Source: Flectobacillus sp.
GTDB taxonomy: Bacteria; Bacteroidota; Bacteroidia; Cytophagales; Spirosomataceae
Reading direction: 5' to 3'
NCBI RefSeq assembly: GCF_049240685.1
Contig: NZ_JBMLSD010000409.1
Span: 32 to 64,031, forward strand
DNA: 64,000 nt
Position 1 is the first letter of the stretch. The number at the start of each line of letters is the position of its first letter. Shown here piece by piece: positions 7,934 through 36,041 of this stretch. Both the position numbers and the translations under genes were made by a program. The notes beneath the pieces were generated by a model that saw nothing but the letters and a program-made list of their open reading frames with translations, ran no database searches and was not told the origin of the DNA.

Positions 7934-7956
7934 TTTGAAATAACCTCCTTTCAACA

Positions 7957-8058
7957 GATTAACCCATGTTAACATGAATTAACTGGAATTAACCCGAATT
8001 AATTGGGATTAACCTAGATTAACCTAGATTAACCTAAAAGTGTCTAACATGGGTTAAT
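7957..8058. repeat. 10-bp phased (G/A)ATTAAC(C/T) tandem array bracketed by a 14-bp inverted repeat
   Basis: Units at 7976, 7986, 7996, 8006, 8016 and 8026 (GAATTAACTG, GAATTAACCC, GAATTAATTG, GGATTAACCT, AGATTAACCT x2). They are flanked by ATTAACCCATGTTA (7958-) and TAACATGGGTTAAT (8045-8058). Confidence 0.8.
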
Positions 8059-8112
8059 TAAGTTTGAGAGGTAAACACATAAACAGGAGGGTGGCCTCCA
8101 ATAATTCACTAC

Positions 8113-8746: not shown

Positions 8747-8976
8747 AATATATACACCTCATATACTTTCTTCTTGATTTTTACATTCCTTGGGATGAGT
8801 GGGCGTAGTAAAGAAACTTCTCATAGGTTTCCTATCATACTCTTCCCAATAAAGCTTAAAAGTATTGTGTAAGCTTCCCCAAAATAGTACGAATTGAAAT
8901 TAGAGAGAATCTTTAACCTTTAAATCGTATTATTTTGGAGAAACCTAACAAATGCTTTGGTAGATATTTAAGCGAT

Positions 8977-11900
8977 TCAATTTACATCAAATACCAAAGT
9001 ATATAATAGGTCTTGATTTAGCTTTTGCTGAATCAATAAATTGTCTATTCCACAAAGGGATGAAGAATTTGCATGTTTGTTATTTACAAACCAACCATGC
9101 TCAATACCAGCATCAGGTCTTATTGTAATCAAGGTCTTATGCTTGTTTCGAATCGACAAGAAACGATAGTGAGGAAGATGTTGGTCTAATTCAACATTGA
9201 CTGACTCAATACCACAATCCTTTGCTATTCTTTGAATAAAGAATTTACGGGAGTTTTCATCATTAAATTGCTCAGTAATATTTCCTTTGTTTTGTTCATA
9301 ATATGGAGCTTTCATTTGTTGCAATTGAACTGTCAACTCGGTTATCTCGAAATTTAATTTCTCTTTCATAGTATTTATAAATTGAACAAGCAACAAGCAT
9401 CCCAAGGGCTTCATAAGGTATCTGTCAGAATACGTAAGATGAACTTTTTCTCCTGCTAGAACTTGGGCAAGTTTATCTTGAACATCATCATTCAAACGTT
9501 CATGAAACATGTTGTAAAAATCTAACGAGTTAATATATTTACTAGGCGCTGGTATTTTTACTTCAAAAATGTTTCCAATCAAATCATCAAATTTTATATC
9601 ATAAATGGGAAGAGTCCACTGACTAAAAGCTTCCTGCTTGTATATATAATTGCTCCTCGAATTACCCCAGTCTGCATCTAATTGGGTATGGAAGTCGTTT
9701 GTAAAATAGTCATACAGTTGATTATTCACAAGCTTTACCCTTGCAATTTGCTGTAAGTTCCCAACACTGAAACTATCAATATAATTAAGTTGCGCCCATA
9801 CTCTTGTTTGAATAAGGGTAAGTTTATGCTCAAGAGATAATTGCATGGGATGACCACGAAAAACTAAATGAATAGAAATACCATTCAATTTCATACTATT
9901 TAGAAGTTGAAAATTATCAACATTCCAGTTATCTATGTTGTCATAGTCTACCAATAACCACACCTCTTGCATTTGTTTTTTACTCAGTAATCTTGCCCAA
10001 TCATTTATGATTGTCCCAATATTTTTTTTAGGTTGATTTGTTAATAACATTTCAACCTCGTAAGGTACCTTATTGTCAACAATACTAGACAACCATTCAA
10101 TAGCACTATGTCGATCTAATTTATCAATATAATACTGAGATTTACGGTCAATCAAGCATTTGGTACAAGCAGATTCACAATTACACCTTTTCAGAAAATC
10201 TAAAGCGTTATTACAAACATCCTCGAAATAGGTGGCAGACTGAGAAACATAGCCGGCACCTCCTTTGGCAGTATCAAAAAGAAAAATACTTGAATAACCA
10301 CGATATTTCTTTAGACCAAAATCAACTTCCTGATCTTCTATACCCAGAAATGTAGTAAGACTTTTCGAAATGGCTTGACCTAAGGAATATAGAGTGGCTT
10401 CATTATTGATAAGGTTCCCATTTGCATCCTTACACCTTATTTCAAAAAAATCAGTTTGGAAACGGCCAACCAATAAAACATTATTTCGAATAGCATATGG
10501 ATTATCATTTCCCTTACAAAGAGAATTATCTCTTTCGTTTTTCCCTCCCCTTAATCTTGTATGACCGTTCAATGAATTTTGATTTATATCCGCACGTCCA
10601 CATTCTAAACAAACAGAATATCCTTCGCCAGCTCCATAATTATAATAAAGTATTTCTGCATTTTCTTTACTATCCCTAAATTCAAAAACAGGATGAGTAT
10701 CATCACTCCAAGATTCAACACCAATTAGTAAAGGTTCAACATACTGAACATTTGAAAGTTCAGTAATCTCCCTTGTTTTATCTTCAAATAAGTCTACAGA
10801 GAAACCCGCAGGCTCGATTATTTCAGTGTATAAACTTTGAGAATTAAGTCCTTTTAGTGTGTCATTTTTACAGTCAGGGCACGTTCTTGAAATAGACTCG
10901 TTACTTACAATATGTTCAAAGCCACAGGCAGTACAGTGTTGTAATATTCGTTTTGTTGCCTCGCCGCCCCAGTTATTTTTTAATGAAATACCTGCAGATT
11001 TATAACTCCAACCATCAATTACTACCTTTGTACCAGGGGCATACTCTGAAAGTGCTCTAGTGATATGATAAGAAGGAAGTTGCTTGGGTTCATCAGCACT
11101 TCGCTTTAAATCCGTAATATTTATATTATTAAAATCAACTACTCCAGTTGGAATTCCTCCAGCAGGTAAAAACCCTTCTTCAGATAGATAGGATAATAGG
11201 TTTTTATGTAAAAATTGATTTTTCTGATAGTTAACAGCTTTGTATGCTGGAGAATCTTCGTTATATCCTTTAAGTTCTAAAAACTTCTTCAAAGAAGTAT
11301 CAAAATCGACCCTCTTTTGAAGAATAGTATTGACTAAAAATTCAAAGTTTGAATAAACTTTATTGATAATTGCCATTGTAGTATGATTACTCAAAGGGGT
11401 ATTCCTAATTATTTGTGCAATTGAATCTAACAATTCTACCGGAACACCTTCAAGTAGAAACTCCATCAATAATTGCGAAGCATTTGCTTGTTTTCCTGCT
11501 AAATTTATGAAGAAAAAACTTTCTATTGTTTCTTTAACATTAATGCCAGCTAGCTGATTTTGGATAAACTTTCCAAGCATAAAAGCATTAATATGGCGTT
11601 GTACTACTGCATTACTGCTAAAGGAAAGCATTGGAGGTGCTATCTTATGATTTAAGGCCCATTCAGGTTTAGCCATCACATTAGATCCTATTGGGTTTGC
11701 AGCACATATGGTGAAAGCAAGAGATTTATTTTCACCTCTTCTGCCTGCTCTTCCCGTTCTTTGTAAATAATTGGCTGGACTAGGTGGCACATTACTCATG
11801 ACAACAGCTGAAATACCGCCAATATCCACCCCCATTTCCATGGTGGTTGAACAGCTTAATATGTTTATTTTGCCGTCCTGAAATTTTGTTTCGAGGTCAT

Positions 11901-14922: not shown

Positions 14923-14937
14923 AAATAGGTTTTGTTT

Positions 14938-18018: not shown

Positions 18019-18050
18019 ATCATGTAAGTATTAACTCTGTAAAACTATGT

Positions 18051-18081
18051 TTCAACTATGCAGTGGTGGTGCATAGTTGAA
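18051..18081 (-). terminator. Hairpin between the hsdR stop and the 1026-aa gene start
   Basis: TTCAACTATGC (18051-18061) pairs perfectly with GCATAGTTGAA (18071-18081), leaving a 9-nt loop. Confidence 0.5.
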
Positions 18082-18194
18082 ATTACTTTATAGGTATATT
18101 AAACTTACTTTGCACTAGTACTTACTCATAGTCGGACAAATCCAAGATTTTTAGTAGTCAATAAGCTAGTAAGTCTTCTTGCTAGTACCTATTT

Positions 18195-21100: not shown

Positions 21101-21533
21101 CTTTTCCGAGTTCTTTGGGCACTAAGGCTTCATCGAAAGGCTTAATGCTGATTCTTTTTTCGTTATATACCTGAACTACCCATGCCAAAAATCCATGCAA
21201 AAGCTTTAGTCCATGCAAGGCATCTTCGGGCTTTAGCCTAATATTCGTATGTACGGCATCGTTACCTTGCTTTCTGATAAGATTGAGCTGCTTAAACTGG
21301 TTGGGAGCTACCAACTGTTTGAATGCTGCATCATGTATCAATGAACTTAGCGAGGTATCATGTGGAAGTACCAAGTCTGGATCATGCTGATAGATCCATC
21401 TTACCCACTCTTCTAAGCTTTTGCGACAAAGCATTGCACAGTAAAGAGGGGCATGATACACATGTTGCTCAGCTTCTTGCGGAGCAGCGGCTAAAGAAGC
21501 CCAAGGAGTAGATATAAACGAAAAATTACTCAT
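18195..21533 (-). CDS. hsdR: Type I restriction enzyme R subunit (DUF4145-like N-terminus, PD-(D/E)xK nuclease, SF2 motor, EcoEI-type C-terminal domain)
   Basis: Nuclease motif FVDYVLW...AVVEAKR. Walker A MATGTGKT, DEIH box (IFDEIHR), LTATP, QMIGRGTR. The ATGA overlaps the hsdS stop. Confidence 0.9.
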   Translation of the reverse strand: MSNFSFISTPWASLAAAPQEAEQHVYHAPLYCAMLCRKSLEEWVRWIYQHDPDLVLPHDTSLSSLIHDAAFKQLVAPNQFKQLNLIRKQGNDAVHTNIRLKPEDALHGLKLLHGFLAWVVQVYNEKRISIKPFDEALVPKELGKDKSKEELKQLEQAYHAQQSKLQQLEAELERIKAIKEQNIITAIPAVDPDEAFTRQRYIDLLLSESGWNPSGTNVREFAVHNCMPQADGSLGNGFVDYVLWGDDGKPLAVVEAKRTKRDPRVGQHQAKCYADGLQQVYGQRPVIFYSNGYQTWLWDDLNYAPREVYGFYTKDELQALVQRRTLRKSLVNQTINSAITDRYYQQEAIRKVAEVLERNQREALLVMATGTGKTRVSASIIDFLSKAGWIKRVLFLADRNALVHQAKVNLNDYLPHLPTVDLTKEKEDDSSRIVFSTYQTMINMIDGEADGDNRMYGIGHFDLIIFDEIHRSVYNRYKHIFKYFDGIRIGLTATPRSHGDKDTYGLFDMEPNNPTYAYELEQAVNDQFLVPPKAISVPIKFQRKGIKYAELSEAEKLMYEEQFSNPLTGDFPEEIDAAALNTWLFNTDTVDKVIGHLMQNGIKVEGGDKLAKSIIFARSHLHAKFIEERFNKQYPEYKGDFLKVIDYQEEYKYDLLNKFKDKAKMPQIAVSVDMLDTGIDVPEVCNLVFFKPIRSRTKYWQMIGRGTRLCKNLFGVDEDKKEFVIFDFCENIEFFNDNPRGFETETGKSLSQRLFELRLKLSLLLEAQEAPELKKYAQELISYLVRQVQALNMQSFLVRQHWEIVEKYQDASQWNTLTDLNIKEIFDHIAPLITEIEQDEQAKRFDAIMLDLQLSILKGEKRQLGIIQNVVITAKKLSKKLTIPSVAQRKELIHDLQEKSFWERVSIPDLEKVRLELRELMKFLEKEKTPIYYSSYQDEVIESGIKEQPLVYNFNDLDTYKRKVEQYLKSQSNNLTIHKLRNNVPITQSELNALEHLLFEQGNLGTREEFIKVYGEQPLGRFIRGIVGLDINAAKLAFGEILNNQTLNSQQIRFIDTIINFLNVKGIIEPAKLFDSPFTDINTSGIMGVFDEQTSAKIITLLETIIQNTEVA

Positions 21534-22675
21534 GCTACTAATTCTCCATTAAATGCTTTTTGTAATAGGGAGTTGAAAAGATTTTCACTTTTAAAGGTTA
21601 TATCCTGACATTGACACTCTATATTTTTCAATACTTCAAGAAAAACGTTTTGTTGTATTATTGGCGGTACAGGGATTACTAATCCTTCTAACACTCCTGT
21701 ATTCATATGAGTAAAGCCATTATCAGAACCAGTCCGAAGCCTTCCGATTTTTTTTCCAAAATACTTCATAAGAGATGTAAAATAGAAAGGATTTATTTGG
21801 TTAGAATCAAGACTAATCTTAATAAGATTTGTACTAATAATTGATTTTGGAATGTCAGTATCAACAACGCACATTTTACCTACAGTTCCAGCCCTAGATA
21901 TAATTATATCTCCATTTTGTGTGGAATATGACTTTAAATCTTGATATTTTTTATCATCTATAAATAAATTACATTGCTTAGAAAACTTGTAATTTATGAT
22001 ATTATCCATGTTCCAAACAGGGATTCCAAAAGTTACAAACTCTTCTCGTTTTAAAGCACTCCCAAATGGTCCACATTTAACAGGAGACTTAAATAGATCC
22101 CCCAACTTCTTCACCTCCCAACCTTTTTCATTTTTAACTGGGTCGCCGAACATGTCGATAAAAATAGCTTGAGCCAACTCATCGTATTTTTTAAGTAGGG
22201 CTTCATCTTTTCGGCGAAGGGCATCCGCTGTATCCAATATCTCAGCAATCCGCTTTTGTATCGGTAGCGGTGGGAGTGGGATTTGAATTGAATCTAATGC
22301 AGATTTTGTTAATTTTCCTCTTGTTGAACCTGTAATAAATTGTGTTAAGTCTTTAGCATTAAGATAATACATCAAATATTTTAAGTCTGACTTACCGTTT
22401 GATGAAAGGACATGAGCGTGATTATTAACCCAACATTTTTCTGAAAAATACACCACACATTTTTGATTTTCGCCCCAACTACCCCCATCTTCTGCAATAC
22501 AAATTATTTCTTCATCAAATAAATATTCATCTACATAATCCATTATATTATTAGCTCCAATATATGGGTACAGTTTTTTCTTAGATATTTTATTTCTCTC
22601 TTGCTCATTTAAGGGCTTTCTCCTATTATCTAAATTAATAGTAATGTCCTTGATTTTAACTTTCTCCCACATCAT
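21530..22675 (-). CDS. hsdS: Type I R-M specificity subunit
   Basis: Two target-recognition halves are separated by the conserved spacer LPPLPIQKRIAEILDTADALRRK. A repeat of it lies at the C-terminus (PVPPIIQQNVF...LLQKAF). Confidence 0.85.
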   Translation of the reverse strand: MMWEKVKIKDITINLDNRRKPLNEQERNKISKKKLYPYIGANNIMDYVDEYLFDEEIICIAEDGGSWGENQKCVVYFSEKCWVNNHAHVLSSNGKSDLKYLMYYLNAKDLTQFITGSTRGKLTKSALDSIQIPLPPLPIQKRIAEILDTADALRRKDEALLKKYDELAQAIFIDMFGDPVKNEKGWEVKKLGDLFKSPVKCGPFGSALKREEFVTFGIPVWNMDNIINYKFSKQCNLFIDDKKYQDLKSYSTQNGDIIISRAGTVGKMCVVDTDIPKSIISTNLIKISLDSNQINPFYFTSLMKYFGKKIGRLRTGSDNGFTHMNTGVLEGLVIPVPPIIQQNVFLEVLKNIECQCQDITFKSENLFNSLLQKAFNGELVA

Positions 22676-22687
22676 ACTTCTAACTAT

Positions 22688-23815
22688 TTAATGATTATAT
22701 TTTGCAATTTCGTTTTTGATAAAAGCCTGTAGGGCTTCTTTGGGTGGTAGTTCTAACAAATATTTAGAAACAAACAGGTGGTTGTCCATGCCTGCGGTGG
22801 CGTATTCTACCAGTGTATGATTTTTATTAGTTACCAACAAAATCCCTACCGTTGGGTTATCGTTGGCTTGCATCACCTGTGCTTTATAGTAGTTTACGTA
22901 GGTGTTTAGTTGTCCAATATTGTGGTGGCTAAACTCTTCTACTTTTAGCTCTACCAGCACATGACATTTGAGAATTCGGTGGTAAAAAACGAGGTCAATA
23001 AAAAAGTACTCGTCCCCAATCAAAATCTTTTTTTGGCGTGCCTCCAAACAAAAGCCATGCCCCATTTCGAGCATAAAATCTTGTAGGTTTTCGAGCAAAG
23101 CAGCTTCCAAATCACTTTCTTCTACGGCATCTTGGTGTTTCAAACCCAAAAACTCAAAAGCATATACCGATTTTACAATCTCTGTAAGATTCGTAGTTTC
23201 TGCTTTGGCGTTAGTTATGGCGCTAAGTTTTTCGGGTTTTGCACTCATATTAGACCGTTCGTAATAGAGGCTATTTATTTGGCGCTTTAGTTCTCGGACA
23301 CTCCAATTACCTTTTATACACTCAAGTTCATAGAAGCTGCGTCTGATGGGGTCATTGATTTTAATTAATAATTCAAAATGTGTATAAGATATTTTACTAG
23401 TAATAAGCTCTCCGTTAAGCTGATAAGCCGATAGTTCAAATTCGGAGGTCGCTGACCTCCGAATTTGTTGAGTGCTGGGCAAAACAATTCCTTTTTCAGA
23501 ATCATAGCTTGCTAAACTCCGAAATGATGGACTTTCAACCACAGTCTGAATCTGAGGGTATATTTGGTAAAATAGCCTAAAGTTTCTGAATGTACGTTCA
23601 TCTAAGCCCTTAATATGCTTACATTTTTGTGCTAAATTTACCAGAAGTTTTTCGCCATATTTTGCACGCTCTTCCCCATTTTGTTCAAATTCCACAATGT
23701 AATAACCAATCAGCCAATTACGTAATGTAAGGCCAATATTAATAGCTTTTGAGGCTTGCTCTTGAAAATACTGATGAGTTTGTTGGATATTATCAACTAA
23801 TAATTCAAATTTCAT
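22688..23815 (-). CDS. DUF1016/YhcG-like PD-(D/E)xK nuclease-fold protein embedded in the hsd operon
   Basis: The C-terminal FFIDLVFYHRILKCHVLVELKVEEFSHHNIGQLNTYVNYY is the characteristic DUF1016 nuclease core. Its start overlaps the hsdM stop by 4 nt. Confidence 0.75.
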   Translation of the reverse strand: MKFELLVDNIQQTHQYFQEQASKAINIGLTLRNWLIGYYIVEFEQNGEERAKYGEKLLVNLAQKCKHIKGLDERTFRNFRLFYQIYPQIQTVVESPSFRSLASYDSEKGIVLPSTQQIRRSATSEFELSAYQLNGELITSKISYTHFELLIKINDPIRRSFYELECIKGNWSVRELKRQINSLYYERSNMSAKPEKLSAITNAKAETTNLTEIVKSVYAFEFLGLKHQDAVEESDLEAALLENLQDFMLEMGHGFCLEARQKKILIGDEYFFIDLVFYHRILKCHVLVELKVEEFSHHNIGQLNTYVNYYKAQVMQANDNPTVGILLVTNKNHTLVEYATAGMDNHLFVSKYLLELPPKEALQAFIKNEIAKYNH

Positions 23816-25275
23816 ACAAGCAGTTGTTTTAATTGTTTCAGCAATTCGGCACGTTCAGCGTCAAGGGCTTCTATTTCGCTAATAATCGTGCTAGGAGCAG
23901 CATAGGTTTTCTGCTCATATACCACCTCTTTGTAACGATTGATACTTAAATCATACTTGTTTTCACGAATTTCGGCCACAGGTACCATAAAACTCTGGTC
24001 GGTACGACTACGAGTACTCTCAGCATCAAGATTATGGTAGCGAGCTACTATATCAGCAATATTATTTGCCTCAACAGGCTGGCGCTTATCGTCGAGGCTA
24101 TAGCCATCGGCTTGCATATCATAAAACCACACGTTTTCGGTACCGCCACTATCGGTTCTTGTAAAGATCAAAATAGCAGTACTTACCCCAGCATAAGGTT
24201 TGAAAACGCCACTTGGCATTGAAATAACAGCCTGTAGCTTTTGATGATCAATAATCTCGGTTCGTATTTGTTGATGAGCTTTACTACTACCAAAAAGAAC
24301 GCCATCAGGAACAATTACAGCCGCACGACCACCCAAAGTCAACCCTTTCAAGATAAGAGCCAAAAATAGTAATTCTGTTTTTTTACTATCAACGACCTTC
24401 AAAATTTTACCATCAACAGCCTCACGGTCGAGACTACCCTTAAAAGGCGGATTGGCCAAGATAAGCGATGCTTTTTCGGTAAAACCTGTATTCGCTTCAC
24501 TCAAGGAGTCCACATCAAAAAGTTGTGGGTTTTCGATACCATGAAGAATCAAGTTCATACCACCAATACGAATCATGGTAGGATCAAACTCCATACCCAT
24601 AAACATGTGATTCTGGAAATGTTCTTTAACCGTATCAGAGTAAAGCTCTGTCGAATAATGCTCACGTATATACTCACCCGCCACAGTCAAAAATCCAGCT
24701 GATCCACAGCTCGGATCACAGATAACATCTTCGAGTGTTGGCTGAGTCATATCCACCATCAACTTAATAATATGGCGAGGCGTGCGGAACTGCCCATTTT
24801 GTCCAGCAGAAGCGATTTTACTGAGCAAATATTCATAGACATCACCTTTTGTATCACGGTCACTCATATCAATATTCGAAAGCATTTCGACCACCTGCGC
24901 CAGCAAGCGAGCCGTAGGAATCATAAACGTAGCACCTTTCATAAACTTACTGAAAGCAGCACTACGATTCCCTACATTACGAAGAAAGTCAAAAACACCC
25001 TTTTCTTTAGTGAAAAGTTTGTGCATCTCTTCAGGATCAATATTTTTGAAACGACTCCAACGCAATTCGTACTCATCTTCGGTATAAATAGGCTCTTCGA
25101 TAGCCGTTCTAAGCAAGTTAGCTTTTTGTTCTTTTTGAGTCTGGAGCTCGTCGAGCCTACGAACAAAAAGCAAATAAGTCATTTGTTCAATAACTGTGAG
25201 AGGGTTTGATAATCCGCCTGTCCAGAACGCTTCCCATACTTTATCAATTTGTGACTTTAATTCTCCAGTAATCAT
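23812..25275 (-). CDS. hsdM: Type I R-M N6-adenine DNA methyltransferase subunit
   Basis: Motif I DPSCGSAGFL and motif IV NPPF (LANPPFKGS), plus an HsdM N-terminal domain. ATG at 25275 (MITGELK) is preferred over the track start at 25305, because a promoter-like box lies inside the longer version. Confidence 0.9.
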   Translation of the reverse strand: MITGELKSQIDKVWEAFWTGGLSNPLTVIEQMTYLLFVRRLDELQTQKEQKANLLRTAIEEPIYTEDEYELRWSRFKNIDPEEMHKLFTKEKGVFDFLRNVGNRSAAFSKFMKGATFMIPTARLLAQVVEMLSNIDMSDRDTKGDVYEYLLSKIASAGQNGQFRTPRHIIKLMVDMTQPTLEDVICDPSCGSAGFLTVAGEYIREHYSTELYSDTVKEHFQNHMFMGMEFDPTMIRIGGMNLILHGIENPQLFDVDSLSEANTGFTEKASLILANPPFKGSLDREAVDGKILKVVDSKKTELLFLALILKGLTLGGRAAVIVPDGVLFGSSKAHQQIRTEIIDHQKLQAVISMPSGVFKPYAGVSTAILIFTRTDSGGTENVWFYDMQADGYSLDDKRQPVEANNIADIVARYHNLDAESTRSRTDQSFMVPVAEIRENKYDLSINRYKEVVYEQKTYAAPSTIISEIEALDAERAELLKQLKQLLV

Positions 25276-25302
25276 GAGGTAATTTTTAAATGAATTTTTT
25301 TG

Positions 25303-25310
25303 CAAATTTA
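25303..25310 (-). promoter_or_regulatory. Bacteroidota -7 promoter box candidate (TAAATTTG) for hsdM
   Basis: The minus-strand sequence TAAATTTG matches TAnnTTTG, about 28 nt upstream of the ATG at 25275. No clear -33 TTTG was found. Confidence 0.4.
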
Positions 25311-25678
25311 GGGTAATCTACCCGTGTTTGAGGTTTATTATTTGATATTACCTCAGTTATTTTAATTGAATATAACTCTTATGGCTCAAATAAACTCCAA
25401 ACGCATAGCTAAAATCCTGTGTTATGAAAACTTTATGCCAAAATGTTATCACATATTTCGAATAATACATTGTGCCCCTTTATTATACTTACACCTTTTA
25501 ACAGCCTTTCTTCATGAAGAATTAGCAAGAACAGTACAAATAAGATTCACTCTCATTTACTTCATTCCTTGCAATGTCAAAATGGCCTTTGGTATATAGT
25601 TTTGTGTTATGTCTCTATTATAAATTGGGCTGTGATAATACAAAATTATTTCTAATCTATGCGCTACACCTGCACAGG

Positions 25679-26692
25679 TTAATTATATTTCTGAAAGAGC
25701 TTATCCAATCGATTCTTAATTTTACTTCTTAAATGCTCAGGAGATAACACTTCTATAACCTCTCCTCGAGATAATATGAGGGTCTCTAATTCGAAATTCA
25801 CTTTAAGTTGAAGCTCAATGATAATATAGTCCTCGTGTCGTTCCAATACTTTTTGGGATCCATGAAATGGTTTTGTCTCAATATATGGCCATGTTTGTAT
25901 ATCTATTTTTAAAACAATTTTCTCTACCTCTATCCCATCAACTGTCACACCAATTGCATCCTCAAAATATTCCTCAAAGTCTATAGTTTCATTAGCTATG
26001 TATGGATTATTGCTTTCCATAAAATGTAGAATTCTGTCTAGAGCCAGATGAGAAGGTTTTTGATATTGTGGATTGAACCCTATTAAGAACCACCGATTAC
26101 TATATTGTTTAAGATAGTATGGGTGTATTTCCATTACCATAGCCTCAACTTTTTTGAAGTTCTGATAATGTATTGTCAGTGTTTTTTTATACAAGATTGC
26201 ATTAAATAGATCCCCAAAGAATTCCAGTCCTTTTAAATACTGGTTTTGTTCGAACCCAACAATAGAGGATGCGCTACTAATATTCAAATTCGTAAATGTT
26301 GATTCCAATCTCACTAATATTTCTTCAATCCATTCAAACTGAGGCATTCCTTTGAATCGTGATAAAATAGATAACGTTTCCTTCAGTTTTCCTAACTCAG
26401 ACTCGTTGATAGCCTGCTTCTTTATCGAGAAGTTTTTGTCAGAGTATCGATAAAATACACGTTTACCGTCTTTATGTCTTTCCAGAGGTATATCCCAACC
26501 TTGTTCACTTTCCATAAACCTAATATCATCGAAAATCTGTCTTCGTTTTATACCATCCGAAATTCCACAGAATTCTACAAGCTCATTATTACAAGCCTCA
26601 ATTAAGTCTTCAATAAAGTATCTGCGATTGAAATTTGAAAAGCATTTATCAAGTGCATGATATCGAATAGTTGCGTGTTTATTGGTGGCCAT
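25679..26692 (-). CDS. wHTH + WYL-domain transcriptional regulator (BrxR/CapW-like position at the head of the defence island)
   Basis: The N-terminus ATIRYHALDKCF is typical of the HTH part. The WYL-like core is HPYYLKQYSNRWFLIGFN. ATG at 26692 is preferred over TTG at 26707. Confidence 0.7.
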   Translation of the reverse strand: MATNKHATIRYHALDKCFSNFNRRYFIEDLIEACNNELVEFCGISDGIKRRQIFDDIRFMESEQGWDIPLERHKDGKRVFYRYSDKNFSIKKQAINESELGKLKETLSILSRFKGMPQFEWIEEILVRLESTFTNLNISSASSIVGFEQNQYLKGLEFFGDLFNAILYKKTLTIHYQNFKKVEAMVMEIHPYYLKQYSNRWFLIGFNPQYQKPSHLALDRILHFMESNNPYIANETIDFEEYFEDAIGVTVDGIEVEKIVLKIDIQTWPYIETKPFHGSQKVLERHEDYIIIELQLKVNFELETLILSRGEVIEVLSPEHLRSKIKNRLDKLFQKYN

Positions 26693-26912
26693 ACAAAAAA
26701 TAATCAATCCCTAAATAGTACCTATGTAAGCCATAATTTAAGAAATATTATTTCCAAATCTATCCTAGTAATTTGAGAAAGGGTAAAATGTTCAAAAATC
26801 AATAGTTTCAAATTTCAGAAACTATGTTTATTGGTACAAGTATTCTATACAACTAATAGCATTTACTGTAGGTATTTTTATACAATGTTATTTTGTACCT
26901 CTTAAAGAGCGT

Positions 26913-27100
26913 TTTATGATTTCGTTCGTCCACACATATCTCTGGGTAGTATGAGTCCTGTTATGATAGAGTAAAAAACAAAACACCCATCTTGGGCTGA
27001 CTGTGGTGGAACCTGTCTCAGCCCAAGATGGGTTAAAAACATAGTCGAAGCAGACAGATTATGTATATTTATATCTGTACTAAAAATGGGAAGCTGACAG
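26913..27100 (+). repeat. Left copy of a ~188-bp repeat (inverted relative to 29924-30112)
   Basis: It aligns end to end with the reverse complement of 29924-30112. It contains a 16-bp perfect hairpin, ACCCATCTTGGGCTGA (26985-27000) with TCAGCCCAAGATGGGT (27018-27033). Confidence 0.85.
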
Positions 27101-27412
27101 AAGCGCTTAAAATTGAGTTATTAATGACTACAGATACGCTTTTGAGAGAGGCATAAATATCCCTTCAGGAAGGGCAATAGCTAGGGCTAATATGCTGTTT
27201 TTTTCACACTGAAACGTAGATGTTTTTACAAGTTGTAAACTAAACCTGTCTTTAGTATGTGTTAGTTGGTAGCTTTAACACCTCAGGTATTTACTCGTTT
27301 CATGTTCGAAAAATTAAGTAGTGTCCCTATCATTTCAAGGGCTTTTCTGTAAGCCTTTGAAAATTGGCGATTTTAGTTTAAACATTATATTTTGTTAACA
27401 GGCACATAAGAC

Positions 27413-27460
27413 AAAACAACCCCTAAAATTGCCATTATTGACATATTTTGGGGTTGTTTT
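27413..27460. terminator. Hairpin downstream of the 129-aa lipoprotein gene
   Basis: AAAACAACCCC(T)AAAAT ... ATTTTGGGGTTGTTTT, with an 11-bp perfect core stem. Confidence 0.45.
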
Positions 27461-27541
27461 ATTTGTAATATACTAATTTTTAAATACTGATATCATTCAA
27501 GATGCGCTCATCTTTCAAACTAATAGCTCGAGTGCTATTAG

Positions 27542-27931
27542 TTATTTCCAGCTCACTGCAACTCCTTTGATATTAAAATCTGTAACGTCAAGTCTAATGA
27601 CAGCGTTGGCTCCATAATTTGCTGCCAATTTTTTTAAGATAATCAAATTTTTATTTGCTGCATCTGAATCATTATTACTTCTTGTTCTAACATATATGAT
27701 TCCTATTTCATGATAAGGTCTTGCTGGTAGCTGTGTAATATATAACTGTACAGAATCTGCTGAAGTAGCTTGGTAATATCCCCCCGAACTTAATGGAATA
27801 AAAGAATCAGGAAATAATTGATTACTACAGCTCACTCCTCCAGTAGCTAGAAATATAAATAGGGATATTAATTTAGCTTTATAGCATTTTACGCTACTAA
27901 TAAATTGAAAATAATTTGATAAGTTTTCCAT
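27542..27931 (-). CDS. Hypothetical lipoprotein
   Basis: Signal/lipobox-like LFIFLATGGVSC. The C-terminal LKKLAANYGANAVIRLDV...GVAVSW is faintly YbjQ/DUF1471-like. Function is unknown. Confidence 0.45.
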   Translation of the reverse strand: MENLSNYFQFISSVKCYKAKLISLFIFLATGGVSCSNQLFPDSFIPLSSGGYYQATSADSVQLYITQLPARPYHEIGIIYVRTRSNNDSDAANKNLIILKKLAANYGANAVIRLDVTDFNIKGVAVSWK

Positions 27932-27935
27932 GGCT

Positions 27936-29326
27936 TTAATTTATATGAATAGTGTAATAGTTTACGATAGTAGCACAATTAACGGTGGCAGTACATTTCA
28001 AGTTAGCATATCCTGCATGTCTATCCCACTTAATCCCAACTTGAGTTGAGTTTACTCCCCACATAATCGTCCCGGTGGTGGAGTAATTAGGATAACCAGA
28101 TGGAATTATTTCCCATTGAATATTGGCGTTTGTACTATTCACTGGACCCTGTATTAGATAACTCATAACAGTTGATGAATAAGGGTCAGGAATATCTGAA
28201 ACATTAAAATTAGAATTTCCAGAAAATGTGAAATACGGTTTGCCCAAATCTGATAGATTAAACCAACCGAACCATAGAGGATTTCCATTGCTACAGCTTG
28301 TTTGACATTTAACTGCTACAGAAGTTACACTATTACTGGTAACATAGTTTCCTGGAAGATAGAGATAGTCATTGCTTGTAAAATTTGAGTACAGTGCGTT
28401 ATTAAGATTGTTATTATAACTGAAGCTAAATGTGAATTGTGAAGGCGATGTATTTCCATACCCAACAGCTTCACAAAGTAAAGCATCACCATAATTGTAT
28501 CAAGTATAGGGAAATGCAACTGAAATAGGATCTTGACACACATTCTTATTTGTACTTCCAGTGCATGTAACAATACCGTTTATAATGCCAAATGCAACTC
28601 CAATAGCGGCTCCAACAACTGAATAGTTTGCAGCGGATGCTAAAGTGGACCCCGTTGCCCATGCAATTGAGGTAGCGACTCCCGCACCTGTTCCAGACCA
28701 CCCACTTATTGCACCTACCCAACAAGCTAAGTCAGACCAAAAATCTTGGCTTTGAAATAATCTTGCTCCTTTTATATTTGGGATTTGTTCTAATTTCCAA
28801 TTTAAAGCATATCTTACAAGTGCCTGATGGCTTAAAATTTGTTTTTTTTCCTCAAATGTCAGAGAATTATCATTTCTGATATTATTTTCTTTATCAATTC
28901 CCCATTTATTTATGCTATTCAAATCAGAAGGGCTTGTTGTTAAATAAGAGGATAGGTCTTTAATATGCTTCTTGATTAAGGAACCAGATTTCTCAGTGTA
29001 ATATTTTTGACCAACAAGATCATCAATAATTTCATCGTGTGATTTTGCTTATATCTTTCTTTCCGAGATTCAAGTTCTTTTTTAAATAGCTCCTGATGCT
29101 CTTTTGGAAGATAAGAAGTTAAATCAACAGATCCCATATAATATTTCAAATGTGTATAAAGAAATTTTCCATCTAATTCGTTGTTAAACATAGTGGAGTC
29201 AACTGAAGGAATTGAGGTTCGATTCCCTGAGGAGTTAATCATCGAATCGTTGAGGGGAATATCTTTAGTACATTGAGTTAAAAGCGCTAGTACAAATACT
29301 AGCATAGGAAGAATGATTTTTTTCAC
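27936..29326 (-). pseudogene. Single ~464-codon lipoprotein gene (glycine-zipper middle, N/S/T/Y-rich C-terminus) broken by a 1-nt homopolymer frameshift and an in-frame TGA
   Basis: Lipoprotein signal MKKIILPMLVFVLALLTQC. ORFs 28976-29326 and 28500-28922 rejoin if one A is added to the A4 run (plus-strand TTTT, 29044-29047). After the TGA at 28500-28502, the same frame stays open for 84 codons without an ATG before the track TTG start of ORF 27936-28247. Confidence 0.55.
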
Positions 29327-29923
29327 GTTATTAAGGTTCTGTAGTTTTTCTCTCTTTAATAGGTGGAGATGACAACCTATACCAAATCAACTTTTGATAT
29401 ATCTTGATCTATATGATGCATGAACATATATTACTGATACCTCTTCTAACAGTTATAAGAATAGGCATTTATAATTTTTCTGATAAAATCTATTTCTTGA
29501 TTTCTTATAGCTAAAATTCTTAATTAAGGATTAATAATAGTTACTCACAAACTAAAAGAATCAAAAGAGTCCTGAATAAGCATAGATACTCTGTATGCTA
29601 TCGTAGAACACCCTAAAGCTTACTTTTGACACATGTTTTTTGTTGGATATGACTACAGCTATCATCCTTCTGTGAATACATTAACTTTTCTACCAGTGTG
29701 ATTAATGGAAAATGTTAATTGTATGAAATTGTGCTCTAATAAAATTAATCCGAATTGGTTAATTTCATTGGGATGGAAAGAATTAGGCAACAATAGAGTT
29801 TCAAACTATATATAGTTCAAATGTATATTAAAATATTAATATACAAAGGTTATTCCATAGATTTTTTTTGATGAACGAGAATAAGGAAAATTAAACGATG
29901 AAAAAAGATAAGATTATAGTTTA

Positions 29924-30112
29924 CTGTCGGCTTCCCATTTTTAGTACAGATTAAAAATATACATAATCTGATTGTTTTGATTATGTATTTACTCCTTCTT
30001 GGGCTTCGTTCCGCTGCGCTACACTCAGCCCAAGAAGGGTATTTTGTTTTTTTACTCTATCATAACAGGACTTATACACCCAGAGATAGGTGTGGACCAA
30101 CGAAATCATAAA
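29924..30112 (-). repeat. Right copy of the ~188-bp repeat
   Basis: Reverse complement of the left copy. The hairpin arms CCTTCTTGGGCT (29994-30005) and AGCCCAAGAAGG (30027-30038) carry paired substitutions relative to the left copy. It overlaps the last ~13 codons of ORF 30072-30632. Confidence 0.85.
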
Positions 30113-30632
30113 TACTGGTATTCAGAAACAACACTTTGGTTTCTTGTGGTCCGTGCAATTGTAAGGCATTTCCTTGCAAGTAAACAGCACTCACGCTCCA
30201 ATTGGGTGTAATTTGGTAATTGAGTGCAATTTCATAGGCCAAAAATCTCAACATTTCCGTAATTTCTTGCGACGCAGTGTTATCTGAAACAATTCTTTTG
30301 ACAAGCGTAAAAGCTGGATGTGCACTTACGCGTAAGCTAAACTTTTTTTGTTCGACTAATTGGTGTCGCAACCAAAAAATCATTCCTCCTTTGCTGGCAT
30401 CCGACACTAATCTTATGTCAGGATTGAAACTAAATCGGTTTTTACGCCATGCGAAATAGGTTACTACGGCCGGTCGATTTAAAGAGAAAGTAGGAATAAT
30501 TGAAAAGCCATTATTGGTCACTCCCACAAAACCGCTAAAGGTATTAATCGTTTTGGTACTGTCTTGTTGCCCATAAACGAGCCTACCCATGAGGGCAAAT
30601 GCCATCAGGGTACATAATTTCATCAAGTTCAT
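30072..30632 (-). CDS. Small secreted, probably outer-membrane beta-barrel-like protein
   Basis: Signal peptide MNLMKLCTLMAFALMGRLVYGQ and alternating beta-strand-like sequence. The C-terminal 13 residues are encoded by the repeat. Confidence 0.4.
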   Translation of the reverse strand: MNLMKLCTLMAFALMGRLVYGQQDSTKTINTFSGFVGVTNNGFSIIPTFSLNRPAVVTYFAWRKNRFSFNPDIRLVSDASKGGMIFWLRHQLVEQKKFSLRVSAHPAFTLVKRIVSDNTASQEITEMLRFLAYEIALNYQITPNWSVSAVYLQGNALQLHGPQETKVLFLNTSIYDFVGPHLSLGV

Positions 30633-31691: not shown

Positions 31692-31868
31692 CTTAATTGA
31701 GTGAATTGAGATTGAGTGAATGAGTGATTATCTTAAAATTAGGATTACATTCCAATTTTAAAATAATACAATACTTGATGACACAGCTTTATTAAGCTTT
31801 TACAAGTGAGAAAATTATTTTAAAAAAATAATCACTAAATCACTCATTCAATAATCACTCAATTCAAG
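31692..31868. repeat. MITE-like element or long bidirectional hairpin: ~40-bp imperfect inverted repeats of GAGTGA/TTGAGTGA words around an AT-rich core
   Basis: CTTAATTGAGTGAATTGAGATTGAGTGAATGAGTGATTAT (31692-31731) matches the reverse complement of 31828-31868 (CTTGAATTGAGTGATTATTGAATGAGTGATTTAGTGATTAT). It lies between the convergent araC-like and hipT-like genes. Confidence 0.55.
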
Positions 31869-34124: not shown

Positions 34125-35003
34125 TTAATCAATCATGAAGCCTTCGAGTGAATTTACCAATTGCTTGAGCTGGTCAAAATGAGTTTTTGATTTGGATGCT
34201 TGAACCGTCTTTAGCATAGCGTTAATATCCTTGAACACTTTATCAGGAGTAGCTTCTGACGAAGAAGTAGACAAAGAAGCTGGCTGTGACACTACCGAAT
34301 CCAGGGCTGCAATACTCGAAATAGGTTGTTCCACAACAGCTTTGCTCAATTGTTGAATAACTTTTTTGGGTACCTTTACTTCTCCTGAGAGAACTTGTTT
34401 ACGAAGATCAATATCCAATTTTTCAAGACCGCTGGCAAAGTCACCATCTCTACGAATAGTTTTTTCATCAACCTTAAACTGCTGCGCTATTTTTTCAGAG
34501 GTTTTTAATTCCATTCCCTCTGTTGAAAAATTAGATTCCTTGCTTGTCAATTTTTCAGCATTGTATCTCAATCCACGGTAATAGGCCATCTGTGTCGGGC
34601 TCAAATTGCGACGCCCCATTTGAAGGTCAAGCATATAATTGCGAGCTTCAAGGATGGTCTCAAAAAACATCAGCACAATATTGAAAGGCAGATTATGTTT
34701 CTGACAAATCAAGTATCTATTGTGACCATCTACCAATACAAATAACTCTTGGTCAGTCTCCGAATTGGGATTGACTTTCTGCTCGGTAGTTTGCCAAATC
34801 ACTAAAGAGTCCTTACAACCATTTGCCAAAATATTAGCTTCAAGTCCTTCTAATTCTTCTGTTTGTAAGGGTTGAATCAAGTCTTTGAGTTCGTCCAAAA
34901 TCGTGATTCGCTGCTTTATATTCTCATTCGAAATCAAACCAGAAGTTACAGTCTTAGTAACGTTCGATTTCATTTGAGCCTTAAAATCTATCTTCTTAGC
35001 CAT
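34125..35003 (-). CDS. parB: ParB/Srx N-terminal-domain partition protein
   Basis: ParB box VLVDGHNRYLIC. 292 aa. It directly abuts the parA stop. Confidence 0.7.
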   Translation of the reverse strand: MAKKIDFKAQMKSNVTKTVTSGLISNENIKQRITILDELKDLIQPLQTEELEGLEANILANGCKDSLVIWQTTEQKVNPNSETDQELFVLVDGHNRYLICQKHNLPFNIVLMFFETILEARNYMLDLQMGRRNLSPTQMAYYRGLRYNAEKLTSKESNFSTEGMELKTSEKIAQQFKVDEKTIRRDGDFASGLEKLDIDLRKQVLSGEVKVPKKVIQQLSKAVVEQPISSIAALDSVVSQPASLSTSSSEATPDKVFKDINAMLKTVQASKSKTHFDQLKQLVNSLEGFMID

Positions 35004-35972
35004 CTATTTCGAATTACGTTTTGAGTTAATATTATTGAGAAGTTCTAGCGCCAACTCATCATACGATTTGGCAGCGGCAGAGTTTTTATCAAAATCAAAA
35101 ATTGGTGCTTTCAAAGCTTGTGCTTTTTTAATTTCAATGCCTTTTTTGATTTCAGTATCAAAAATATTGACGCTTTGATAGTTTTCTCTAACTGCTTCTT
35201 TCATACTGGTATGCACAGTATTTTTTTCAACTATCGTAAACAAAATACCTTCGATATGTAAAGTTGGATTTGAGAAAATTTGTGTCTCATAAATTACCCC
35301 AAAAAGTGAGTTAAGACCATTTACCGCATTCATTTCTGGTTGCATAGCCACAATGCACGAGTTGGCTGCATTTAATGCATTGAGTGTCAAAACCGATAGG
35401 GAAGGAGGACAGTCTATTAAGATAAAATCATACACATCCAGAAATGGAACTAAAGCTCTTTGCAAACGTTGTTGGCTAGCTGGAGCTGAAAGTAGCGTTT
35501 GTTCAGCTTTTTGAAGTTCTAAGTCAGAGGGAGCAATATGTAAGTGTTCCGTAACTTCTTCGATATGCAATGGAATGGTATAGTTGACCAAGGAATTAAA
35601 CACTTGTCCATTCTCGGTAGTCACATTGAATATCTGACTTAAGTTACCTTGAGAGTCAAGGTCAATCAACAATACCTTCAAACCACGATTCGATAAGGCT
35701 TCACCCAAGTAAGCAGTTGTGGTTGTTTTTCCAACACCACCTTTATTATTGGCAATGGCAATAACTGTAGCTTTAAGATTGAAAGCTTCATTATAACCAT
35801 ATTTCATCAGAACAGGCAACAATTTGCTACGTTGCTTATCGGTAAGTTCGCGCTTAAGAGAGATAATTTGAGTGAGCGAGCGAATCGCCATGCCAGCTTC
35901 TTTTTCAATACCCGTAATGGTAAGGGCTGGATTTCTATTAAGAAAACGAATTAGTAAGTCTGTAGTAAGCAT
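35004..35972 (-). CDS. parA: ParA partition ATPase with N-terminal extension (type Ia-like)
   Basis: Deviant Walker A NNKGGVGKTT after a ~70-aa HTH-like N-terminal extension. 322 aa. Confidence 0.85.
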   Translation of the reverse strand: MLTTDLLIRFLNRNPALTITGIEKEAGMAIRSLTQIISLKRELTDKQRSKLLPVLMKYGYNEAFNLKATVIAIANNKGGVGKTTTTAYLGEALSNRGLKVLLIDLDSQGNLSQIFNVTTENGQVFNSLVNYTIPLHIEEVTEHLHIAPSDLELQKAEQTLLSAPASQQRLQRALVPFLDVYDFILIDCPPSLSVLTLNALNAANSCIVAMQPEMNAVNGLNSLFGVIYETQIFSNPTLHIEGILFTIVEKNTVHTSMKEAVRENYQSVNIFDTEIKKGIEIKKAQALKAPIFDFDKNSAAAKSYDELALELLNNINSKRNSK

Positions 35973-36041
35973 AAAAAAGCATTTATTGTGTAAATATAAT
36001 ATTTGTATTTTATCTACACAATAAATATCATTTTTTATATC

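What the first reader, a model, noticed from the sequence alone, without database searches (positions are those of the whole stretch)
26913..30112. Two ~188-bp inverted repeats with a covarying internal hairpin bracket a 2.8-kb gene cassette
Bases 26913-27100 align over their whole length with the reverse complement of 29924-30112. The outer ~90 nt and the inner ~50 nt are highly similar, while the centre has diverged. Both copies keep a central hairpin, and its arms differ by paired substitutions: CATCTTGGG/CCCAAGATG on the left versus CTTCTTGGG/CCCAAGAAG on the right. That pattern indicates selection for the structure. The right copy supplies the last ~13 codons and stop of ORF 30072-30632 (YDFVGPHLSLGV*). 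The left copy carries the same coding tail (YDFVRPHISLGS...) with no gene attached. No recombinase or transposase lies between or next to the repeats. Possible explanations are an invertible segment acted on in trans, a composite MITE-flanked cassette, or an inverted duplication scar.
Basis: seen in the sequence. Interest (0 to 1): 0.65.

Follow-up and report, generated by a model that had tools for sequence, protein, structure and literature searches.

The report
Two decayed insertion-sequence ends flanking a cassette
The two 188-bp inverted repeats are leftover right-hand ends of an IS3-family insertion sequence at recombination joints in a mosaic plasmid, so this is ordinary mobile-element debris and not a switch or a new RNA gene.

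Summary
The repeat is real: 26913-27100 (+) matches 29924-30112 (-) at 84% over 188-190 nt, and the window holds no other copy. Each arm is the last ~187 nt (positions 1079-1265) of a 1265-bp IS3-family insertion sequence. That IS is multi-copy in Flectobacillus genomes and in the runs that hold this window. It has TG...CA terminal repeats, an orfA and an orfB, and an A7G frameshift site. The "coding tail" YDFV(G/R)PH(L/I)SLG is the transposase C-terminus. The hairpin lies just after the transposase gene. A T-run follows it on the antisense strand, so it looks like a terminator against inward read-through. Both IS tips point inward at the 2.8-kb segment, and neither arm has a left IS end or a transposase gene. 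The right arm cuts a DUF2490-like outer-membrane gene after codon 174 (254 aa in relatives). The left flank continues differently in related samples. The arms are mosaic, which explains the "diverged centre". The cassette holds a broken ~463-aa lipoprotein gene and a 129-aa ORF. The window looks like a cointegrate plasmid (two Rep_3, two ParA). I found no invertase and only one orientation in contigs. Both arms break at the same IS position, and I could not explain that.

The parts
26913..27099 (+). Left arm: remnant of the right end (IS positions ~1079-1265) of an IS3-family insertion sequence. The IS tip (..GGGAAGCTGACA) is at 27099 and faces the cassette.
   Evidence: BLASTN to the 1265-bp IS from Flectobacillus roseus locus L007 covers IS 1079-1258 at 80%. 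It aligns end to end with 12 Flectobacillus copies, and flanks diverge exactly after ..GACA. X3 and X8 hold contigs 98% identical to it.
26914..26973 (+). Orphan transposase C-terminal coding remnant (YDFVRPHISLGSMSPVMIE*).
   Evidence: It is homologous to the end of OrfB of the full IS...WLRDYNFVRPHVSLGGMSPVDYR.... OrfB hits rve/rve_3 and NCBIfam IS3 transposase.
26985..27033 (.). Left-arm palindromic hairpin (ACCCATCTTGGGCTGA / TCAGCCCAAGATGGGT). On the - strand it is followed by GTTTTGTTTTTT, so it is terminator-like for transcripts leaving the cassette leftward.
   Evidence: Fold; the T-tail on the - strand was picked up; family-wide covariation.
27039..27065 (.). Second small hairpin of the IS right end (ACATAGTC..GATTATGT).
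   Evidence: present in all Flectobacillus-type copies.
27075..27099 (+). Right terminal inverted repeat (IRR) of the IS, left arm: CTGTACTAAAAATGGGAAGCTGACA.
   Evidence: It matches the IRR of all full copies and is the inverted partner of the IRL TGTAAGGTTCCCCAAAAATAGTAC.
27101..27324 (+). Conserved non-coding element at the left edge of the cassette. The IS tip sits exactly at its start.
   Evidence: 78% identical to F. longus L029:94-309, where no IS is present and homology starts at GAAGCGC. Part of it (27154-27201) is multi-copy in X3 and X8.
27542..27931 (-). 129-aa ORF of the cassette, with a lipoprotein-like N-terminus. No family assigned.
   Evidence: The only hit is a weak FvfA match, E = 0.007, far below the cut-off.
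27936..29326 (-). Pseudogene of a ~463-aa lipoprotein. It has a 1-nt frameshift at 29042 and an in-frame stop near 28500.
   Evidence: X3 carries an extra T after 29042. The read-through gives one 463-aa frame with full-length homologues of 452-469 aa at 41-45% identity and 100% coverage.
29925..30112 (-). Right arm: remnant of the same IS right end, inverted, with its tip at 29925 facing the cassette. It is a mosaic: positions 1-71 are like the left arm and 72-187 are like the standard Flectobacillus IS.
   Evidence: IS 1079-1265 at 82.5%. Segment identities: 93% to the left arm in 1-71, and 94-97% to L023 in 72-187.
29994..30038 (.). Right-arm hairpin (CCTTCTTGGGCT / AGCCCAAGAAGG). On the + strand it is followed by GTATTTTGTTTTTTT, so it is terminator-like for transcripts leaving the cassette rightward.
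30111..30632 (-). Truncated DUF2490-like outer-membrane beta-barrel gene (codons 1-174 of ~254), fused in frame to the transposase remnant at 30072-30110.
   Evidence: Homologues are 253-257 aa and cover only 94% of the query. P0001 is 97% identical over residues 1-174. The intact locus L041 continues with Fer2 and molybdopterin-binding genes. X2 and X3 contigs show the uninterrupted gene diverging at 30110.
8868..8990 (+). Third IS fragment in the window: a decayed left end (IRL TGTAAGCTTCCCCAAAATAGTAC plus about 100 nt of the 5' region).
   Evidence: BLASTN to IS 1-33 at 88%. The local alignment extends to about IS position 132 (score 77); significance was not tested for this region.

Best explanation
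Each arm is a dead fragment of an IS3-family insertion sequence: its last ~187 nt. That fragment contains the final ~20 codons of the DDE transposase, a palindromic hairpin just after the gene, a second small hairpin and the 25-bp right terminal repeat. Shown: the same 1265-bp IS is intact and multi-copy in Flectobacillus species and in the samples that hold this window. Also shown: the two IS tips face inward onto the 2.8-kb segment, and the outer edge of each arm is an internal IS position joined to unrelated DNA. On the right that DNA is an outer-membrane gene cut after codon 174. On the left it is a flank that continues differently in related strains. Inferred: two IS (or miniature IS) copies once sat in inverted orientation on either side of the 2.8-kb segment, as full copies do in F. 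roseus locus L026. Recombination among the many IS copies then placed this segment between two otherwise unlinked loci of a cointegrate plasmid. The right arm is a recombinant, which fits this. The IS bodies were then lost by short-homology (T-run) deletions, much as flanking IS copies are lost from other composite transposons. What remains cannot move by itself because it has no left end and no transposase. It is not an inversion switch. Its likely residual effect is passive: the two hairpin-plus-T-run modules face outward from the cassette and should stop transcripts leaving it. The right arm also gives the truncated membrane gene a 12-residue foreign tail and a stop codon.
For: The arms match IS positions 1079-1265, and homology to 12 Flectobacillus copies stops exactly at the IS tip. 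The full IS has these features: IRL/IRR with TG..CA ends; orfA = HTH_Tnp_1 and orfB = rve/rve_3; NCBIfam IS3 transposase at 188 bits against a cut-off of 160; and a GAAAAAAAG slippery site between the frames. It is multi-copy: about 28 Flectobacillus loci, many at contig ends, and depth over the whole IS is 6-20 times the genome depth in X1, X2, X3 and X8. Within the arm, only the terminal ~140 nt is high-copy at 88% likeness. The outer-membrane gene is truncated. The uninterrupted allele occurs in X2 and X3. Alternative continuations of the left flank occur in X3 and X8. The arms are mosaic. The left IS tip sits exactly at the start of a conserved element that has no IS in F. longus. The cassette gene is a pseudogene. 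The plasmid is a mosaic with two Rep_3 and two ParA genes, an IS256 transposase and a third IS fragment. F. roseus L026 holds an inverted pair of this IS (one complete, one 5'-truncated) around 2.7 kb of unrelated DNA. Decay of IS-flanked units by 2-4-bp microhomology deletions is described in bioRxiv 10.1101/2023.06.07.543989.
Against: Both arms break at the same internal IS position (flank|ATGATTTCG, just after GGGATTT). Two independent random deletions would rarely do this, and I could not explain it. Target-site duplications were seen for only about 1 of 12 full copies, so the insertion history cannot be read from them. The ancestral full-length flanking copies are inferred and not observed at this locus. 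All public runs are available only as contigs, so rare inverted or excised forms cannot be excluded. The terminator role of the hairpins is read from sequence only.
Confidence: 0.85

Rival explanations
1. The arms descend from one truncated IS end that was duplicated in inverted orientation. One copy was later partly overwritten by gene conversion from a standard IS copy. On this view the shared breakpoint is inherited and was not hit twice.
For: Both arms start at the same IS position. In positions 1-71 they are each other's closest relatives (93%, against 71-79% to any Flectobacillus copy), and they share indels there. At 88% likeness, that 5' part is present only twice in the source metagenome X1.
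Against: The duplicated piece would have to begin exactly at the old breakpoint and end exactly at the IS tip, because no similarity extends beyond either edge. No known duplication process copies just that piece. The left tip sits at a natural IS insertion boundary. X3 and X8 hold a 98% identical unit attached to the IS 5' end, so this sequence type exists outside the window as a longer element.
Confidence: 0.3
2. The 3.2-kb unit is a mobilisable cassette: a composite or MITE-flanked transposon moved in trans by the transposase of full-length IS copies.
For: Full copies of the IS, and so presumably its transposase, are present in the same samples. An internally deleted miniature form of this arm type exists in X3 and X8. 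Cassette sequence occurs at a different depth from both flanks in X3.
Against: The IS tips point inward, and the outer ends of the unit are internal IS sequence with no terminal repeat. There is no target duplication at 26912/30113. The two flanks are not contiguous in related genomes. The left arm has no detectable left-end sequence upstream (108 of 500 shuffles score as well). The two inward tips could only mobilise the rest of the replicon.
Confidence: 0.05
3. The segment 27100-29924 is a phase-variable invertible element, flipped by recombination between the arms.
For: The only support is the geometry: inverted repeats around a gene-bearing segment.
Against: No invertase or integrase is encoded in or near it. 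The arms are 84% identical with short identical runs. Contigs of X1 run through the whole left arm and the cassette in the window's orientation at the same depth as the flanks. The few opposite-strand joints listed are explained by the arms matching each other and by the palindromic hairpin. The main gene inside is a pseudogene.
Confidence: 0.03
4. The unit is a structured small-RNA gene present in two copies.
For: The folds are stable and the stem covaries strongly across relatives.
Against: There is no Rfam match in the window or in ten related IS loci. The structure lies inside a transposon end and overlaps the transposase stop codon. Stem changes are almost all Watson-Crick to Watson-Crick, with a single G-U. 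The loop occurs in both orientations among near-identical copies. These last two points suggest a DNA palindrome more than an RNA under selection.
Confidence: 0.04

Closest known systems
IS3-family insertion sequences (for example IS911, IS3, IS150, IS629), and solo or partial IS copies left by their decay
   Same: The parent element is 1265 bp with about 25-bp terminal repeats ending 5'-TG..CA-3'. It has orfA (HTH_Tnp_1) and orfB (rve DDE core) in -1 frame relation with an A7G slippery site. OrfB scores above the NCBIfam IS3 cut-off. The element is present in many copies with unrelated flanks.
   Different: In the window only the last 187 nt survive, twice. The subgroup was not assigned because no ISfinder comparison was available. 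Target duplications are mostly not visible. The element carries a long palindrome with a conserved core just after orfB, which as far as I recall is not a described family feature.
Decaying composite transposons such as ISApl1-mcr-1-ISApl1 (Tn6330), whose flanking IS copies are lost by microhomology deletions
   Same: A short segment sits between two copies of one IS. The IS bodies are gone, the junctions fall in short homologies (T-runs here), and the remaining structure is immobile (for the published model; for the junctions).
   Different: The ISApl1 deletions remove almost exactly one IS length and leave little behind. Here 187 nt of the inner end stay on both sides, the outer flanks are not the original insertion site, and the IS copies are inverted.
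MITEs derived from IS elements by internal deletion
   Same: X3 and X8 hold a copy 98% identical to the left arm, directly preceded by the IS 5' end up to the orfA start (..ATTATGAAAAGGAGGGA|TTTATGATTTCG). This is an internal-deletion derivative.
   Different: Neither window arm has the 5' part (the right arm abuts the membrane gene). They lack one terminal repeat, and their 5' portion is not multi-copy in the source sample.
Small inversions of hairpin loops between short inverted repeats, well known from plastid non-coding DNA
   Same: The ~20-nt loop between the 14-15-bp stem arms occurs in both orientations among otherwise near-identical IS copies in one genome, for example L003 against L005 and L023 against L027.
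   Different: Here it sits inside a bacterial IS and changes the transposase C-terminal tail: the stop codon is either in the loop or 13 codons later. The plastid comparison is from my own knowledge; one plastid paper turned up.

Membership tests
IS3-family insertion sequence (parent element of the arms) | Terminal inverted repeats of about 20-40 bp ending 5'-TG...CA-3' | tested here: met
   IRL TGTAAGGTTCCCCAAAAATAGTAC and IRR ..GTACTAAAAATGGGAAGCCGACA occur in about 10 full copies. The window arms keep the IRR only.
IS3-family insertion sequence (parent element of the arms) | orfA (HTH) and orfB (DDE/rve) in 0/-1 frames with a slippery A6-7G site | tested here: met
   Translation of the L007 IS. 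Pfam HTH_Tnp_1 at 9.6e-18 and rve_3 at 2.5e-20 / rve at 1.4e-12. GAAAAAAAGCTC lies at the orfA end. Frameshifting itself was not assayed.
IS3-family insertion sequence (parent element of the arms) | Transposase above the curated IS3 family threshold | tested here: met
   NF033516 IS3 family transposase at 188 bits against a cut-off of 160. The next best, IS481, is below its cut-off.
IS3-family insertion sequence (parent element of the arms) | 3-5-bp target-site duplication | tested here: inconclusive
   Only L007 shows a 4-bp repeat (TAAC). The other full copies show none, perhaps because of recombination among copies.
IS3-family insertion sequence (the arms as intact members) | Both ends and a transposase gene present | tested here: not met
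   The arms cover IS 1079-1265 only. There is no IRL next to either arm. They are remnants, not elements.
Composite transposon | Two IS copies whose outer ends are functional IS ends, with a target duplication around the whole unit | tested here: not met
   The outer edges are internal IS sequence and the tips face inward. There is no direct repeat at 26912/30113. The flanks are not contiguous elsewhere.
MITE | Short non-autonomous element with terminal inverted repeats at both ends, in many copies | tested here: not met
   No left terminal repeat was found. At 88% likeness, the 5' 48 nt of the unit occur only twice in X1. A related true internal-deletion form is glimpsed in X3 and X8, but only 20-33 nt of its 5' part are visible.
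Site-specific invertible segment (Hin/Gin/Fim-type or Bacteroidota invertible promoters) | Cognate recombinase nearby | tested here: not met
   Pfam and NCBIfam scans of all neighbouring ORFs found no recombinase.
Site-specific invertible segment (Hin/Gin/Fim-type or Bacteroidota invertible promoters) | Both orientations present in a population | tested here: inconclusive
   Only the window orientation appears in contigs of X1 and X2. No raw reads were available, and contigs drop rare variants.
Known structured RNA family (Rfam) | Covariance-model match | tested here: not met
   No hit at gathering score in the window. Nothing relevant at E<=1 in 26700-30300. Nothing at E<=0.1 in ten related IS loci.
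Intrinsic (Rho-independent) terminator | G+C-rich stem followed by a U-run on the transcribed strand | tested here: inconclusive
   15-bp stems are followed by GTTTTGTTTTTT (left arm, - strand) and GTATTTTGTTTTTTT (right arm, + strand). The simple scanner caught only the inner part of the left one because the loop exceeds its limit. No transcript data were examined.

The most novel reading that the evidence does not exclude
The palindromic module just after the transposase gene may be a functional part of this IS3 subgroup that has not been described. Its outer stem covaries freely. Its ~37-nt core (GCTTCG..GGCTACGCC..CGC) is symmetric and conserved across elements only 70-75% identical. Its loop flips orientation between near-identical copies. 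It could be a binding site or cruciform, or an antisense terminator that controls transposition or transposase C-terminal variants. The recurrent breakpoint about 187 nt from the tip (two window arms, plus the internal-deletion form 6-9 nt away) could mark a defined right-end module or a preferred site of abortive copy-out.
Probability: 0.12. Interest if true: 0.5.

Novelty: new member of a known kind. Interest (0 to 1): 0.2.

Why it matters
For annotation, 30072-30632 should be called a truncated outer-membrane gene fused to a transposase fragment. Region 27936-29326 should be called a pseudogene, and the arms should be called partial IS3-family copies. For plasmid biology, the window is a clear example of a Spirosomataceae cointegrate plasmid (two replication and two partition modules, a defence island, a toxin-antitoxin pair) stitched together at IS fragments. 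The IS itself is abundant in freshwater and wastewater Flectobacillus-like bacteria and appears to be unnamed. Its conserved, flipping palindrome and the repeated breakpoint are small open questions about how IS3-type elements decay and protect themselves from read-through. None of this changes current understanding of mobile elements.

Tried and rejected
1. Plasmid database (PLSDB): searching the 6.2-kb region (near mode) and the unit (distant mode) gave no match.
2. Rfam: nothing relevant in the window or in related IS loci.
3. Metagenome scan for the window-type 5' part of the unit (TTCGTTSGTCCACACMTATCTCTGGGT): no hit. The second scan, with the IRR, returned mostly 70-75% related IS elements and solo ends.
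4. Idea that the left arm is a whole miniature element with a decayed left end upstream: the anchored alignment was not better than shuffles (108 of 500 for the IS 5' part, 292 of 500 for the window's own IRL remnant). An IRL-like stretch at 26708-26722 was also not significant. Rejected.
5. Idea that the IRL remnant at 8868 and the left arm are two halves of one element split by the 18-kb defence island: the IRL remnant extends to about IS position 132, not to the arm's breakpoint, and the flanking bases do not form a target duplication. Rejected.
6. Idea that the left flank is a decayed paralogue of the outer-membrane gene, which would make the two junctions homologous: the alignment score was below the shuffle mean. 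Rejected.
7. Idea that the F. roseus inverted IS pair (L026) carries the same cassette: no similarity.
8. The apparent joint 26978->29994 and the opposite-strand joints in X3 are other IS copies with the loop in the other orientation. They are not an empty site or an inversion.
9. The sequences that follow the left flank in X3 and X8 are absent from the window.
10. Look-up of the WYL protein found no contig.
Full report
**1. Observation**

Bases 26913-27100 on the + strand align over their whole length with the reverse complement of 29924-30112. Identity is 84% over 190 columns, BLASTN E = 1.7e-48, and the 64-kb window has no third copy. Unit positions 1-71 are 93% identical, the hairpin region 72-120 is 69%, and 121-187 is 85%. 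Each arm folds into a long hairpin plus a second small one. The right arm supplies the last codons and the stop of ORF 30072-30632. The left arm carries a similar orphan reading frame.

**2. What the unit is**

Laying public contigs on the region showed that part of the unit is six to eight or more times deeper than its flanks in several samples. So it belongs to a dispersed repeat. A scan of one genome per species with the hairpin as pattern returned about 28 loci in Flectobacillus longus, F. rivi and F. roseus, many at contig ends. All of them align with the whole unit.

In those genomes the unit is preceded by coding sequence. Similarity among copies ends sharply at ..GGGAAGCCGACA. Extending four copies defined a 1265-bp element with these features:
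- a left repeat TGTAAGGTTCCCCAAAAATAGTAC and its inverted partner at the right end;
- an 88-aa orfA (HTH_Tnp_1);
- a GAAAAAAAG slippery site;
- an orfB with rve/rve_3 domains that scores 188 bits on the NCBIfam IS3 transposase model, whose cut-off is 160.

The window arms correspond to IS positions 1079-1265. The tail YDFV(G/R)PH(L/I)SLG is the transposase motif ..YNFVRPHVSLGG... The full IS is present at 6-20 times genome depth in X1 (the metagenome that holds the window), X2, X3 and X8.

**3. Geometry**

The IS tips are at 27099 and 29925, and both face the 2.8-kb segment. The outer edges of the arms are internal IS sequence. The window contains only three IS-end-like sequences: the two right ends and a decayed left end at 8868-~8990. 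Neither arm has a left end or a transposase gene. The 3.2-kb unit is therefore not a composite transposon, and the arms are not MITEs.

**4. The junctions**

Right junction. Homologues of ORF 30072-30632 are 253-257 aa, and some sources name them DUF2490 or outer-membrane beta-barrel proteins. The window keeps residues 1-174, which are 97% identical to P0001. No sequence for the missing 80 residues exists anywhere in the window. In an intact locus (L041) the gene is followed by Fer2 and molybdopterin-binding genes. X2 and X3 also contain the uninterrupted allele, which diverges from the window at 30110.

Left junction. The flank up to 26914/26915 occurs in X3 and X8 joined to other sequences (CTAAAATAATTTTC.. 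and AGGAAAACC..). These are absent from the window.

So both outer junctions are novel joints between loci that are not neighbours elsewhere. Both fall in a T-run and at the same IS position (flank|ATGATTTCG).

**5. Mosaic arms**

In positions 1-71 the two arms are each other's nearest relatives and are only 71-79% identical to the Flectobacillus copies. From position 72 to the tip, the right arm is 94-97% identical to the L023-type IS and only 69-85% identical to the left arm. The right arm is therefore a recombinant. This explains the "diverged centre".

A unit 98% identical to the left arm exists in X3 and X8. There it is directly preceded by the IS 5' end up to the orfA start codon, which makes it an internal-deletion miniature derivative. 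Its deletion joint lies 6-9 nt upstream of the arms' breakpoint.

**6. The segment between the arms**

The minus strand carries one long gene broken by a frameshift at 29042 and an in-frame stop near 28500. X3 has the extra base at 29042. The read-through of 463 aa has full-length homologues of 452-469 aa in Spirosomataceae and in a phage-like contig. A 129-aa ORF follows it.

The first 224 nt (27101-27324) are a conserved non-coding element. It is 78% identical to a stretch downstream of abortive-infection genes in F. longus, and the homology starts exactly where the IS tip ends. That marks the left tip as a true insertion boundary.

**7. Context**

The window looks like a cointegrate plasmid. 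It carries:
- two Rep_3 initiators (4056-5021, 36042-37415);
- two ParA genes (2281-2919, 35004-35972);
- an IS256 transposase (968-2062);
- a VapE-like gene;
- a large DEAD/MZB helicase;
- a type I restriction system with a YhcG nuclease gene inside it;
- a WYL regulator;
- a HipA gene.

IS fragments sit at module borders.

**8. Mechanism**

Most likely, two copies of the IS or its miniature form flanked the 2.8-kb segment in inverted orientation. An inverted pair of this IS (one complete, one 5'-truncated) does this around unrelated DNA in F. roseus L026. Recombination among IS copies then moved the segment between two loci, and the IS bodies were lost by short-homology deletions. Loss of flanking IS copies by 2-4-bp microhomology during copy-out-paste-in transposition has been described for other elements (bioRxiv 10.1101/2023.06.07.543989).

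The identity of the arms, the junctions and the mosaic are shown. The order of events is inferred. The shared breakpoint is unexplained. It could be inherited from one truncated ancestor, or it could reflect a preferred break site. The nearby deletion joint of the miniature form hints at the second option.

**9. The hairpin**

Across thirteen relatives, some only 70-75% identical overall, 14 of the 16 outer stem pairs change on both sides and 97% of cells stay paired. No shuffle and no slid control comes close.

Three further points bear on how to read it:
- Almost all changes go from one Watson-Crick pair to another, with a single G-U.
- The loop has a conserved symmetric core.
- Among near-identical copies in one genome the loop occurs in both orientations, for example L003 against L005 and L023 against L027.

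These points suggest a DNA-level palindrome, or a hairpin needed on both strands, more than a dedicated RNA gene. There is no Rfam match.

A T-run follows the hairpin on the strand antisense to the transposase. In an intact IS it would stop transcription entering through the right end. In the window, the two copies face outward from the cassette.

**10. Inversion**

No recombinase is nearby. Contigs of X1 cross the whole left arm and the cassette in one orientation at flank depth. Only contigs were available, so rare events cannot be excluded.

**11. Verdict**

This is ordinary mobile-element debris: partial copies of an apparently unnamed IS3-family element at recombination joints of a mosaic plasmid. 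Two minor open points remain: the repeated breakpoint and the flipping, conserved palindrome of this IS group.

Noticed in passing
L003/L005 (F. longus), L023/L027 (F. rivi); window 26985-27033 and 29994-30038: The ~20-nt loop of the IS hairpin occurs in both orientations (GAGTGTAGCGTAGCGGAACGAA or its reverse complement) among otherwise near-identical IS copies of one genome. Flipping moves the transposase stop codon: it is in the loop in one form and 13 codons later in the other. Many assemblies break at this point.
   Followed up: partly
L048, L050, L052, L054, L056, L058, L059, L061, L062, L063, L069 (IS right ends from metagenomes): IS3-family relatives only 70-75% identical keep a hairpin at the same place. 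The outer stems are completely different but complementary. The inner core is conserved and symmetric (..CGTTNCGCTTCGGCTACGCCTTCGCTNCAC..). There is no Rfam match.
   Followed up: partly
window 31692-31868: A ~175-bp element with 40-nt GAGTGA-rich terminal inverted repeats lies between the AraC gene and hipA. It is 6-20 times deeper than its flanks in X1 and X3, and contigs from two samples (L001, L041) end inside it. It is probably a separate high-copy MITE.
   Followed up: partly
window 8868-8990: A decayed left end of the same IS (IRL plus about 100 nt) lies just downstream of the 1981-aa helicase gene, 18 kb from the left arm and in the same orientation. It does not share the arm's breakpoint, and there is no matching target duplication.
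   Followed up: yes
window 27101-27324; L029:94-309: A conserved non-coding element of about 224 nt contains a CCCTTCAGGAAGGG hairpin. It is 78% identical in F. longus, where it lies downstream of AbiC/AbiTii-like genes. Part of it is multi-copy in X3 and X8. In X2 another copy has an IS left end inserted after the position equivalent to 27186. It may be a preferred IS target or a repeated intergenic element.
   Followed up: partly
window 37-8517 and 34125-37415: There are two separate replication and partition modules (Rep_3 at 4056-5021 and 36042-37415; ParA at 2281-2919 and 35004-35972), plus an IS256-family transposase at 968-2062. The window looks like a fusion of two plasmids.
   Followed up: partly
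window 8977-26707 (- strand): A compact one-strand gene block carries a 1981-aa DEAD/Helicase_C/MZB (DUF1998-type) protein, a 1026-aa protein with no family, hsdR, hsdS, a YhcG-type PDDEXK nuclease inserted between hsdS and hsdM, hsdM, and a WYL/WCX regulator. It is a probable defence island. The helicase pair was not compared with PADLOC models.
   Followed up: no
X8 and X3 contigs, junction ..ATTATGAAAAGGAGGGATTT|ATGATTTCG: In the miniature IS derivative the deletion joint creates a strong ribosome-binding-like AAGGAGG five bases before an ATG that opens a 12-codon frame (MISFVHTYLWVV*). This is probably chance.
   Followed up: no
L074 (ENA contig, 9.9 kb): A full-length homologue of the cassette's broken lipoprotein gene lies next to many small ORFs and a tape-measure gene. 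So this rare gene family (14 proteins found) also travels on phage-like DNA.
   Followed up: no
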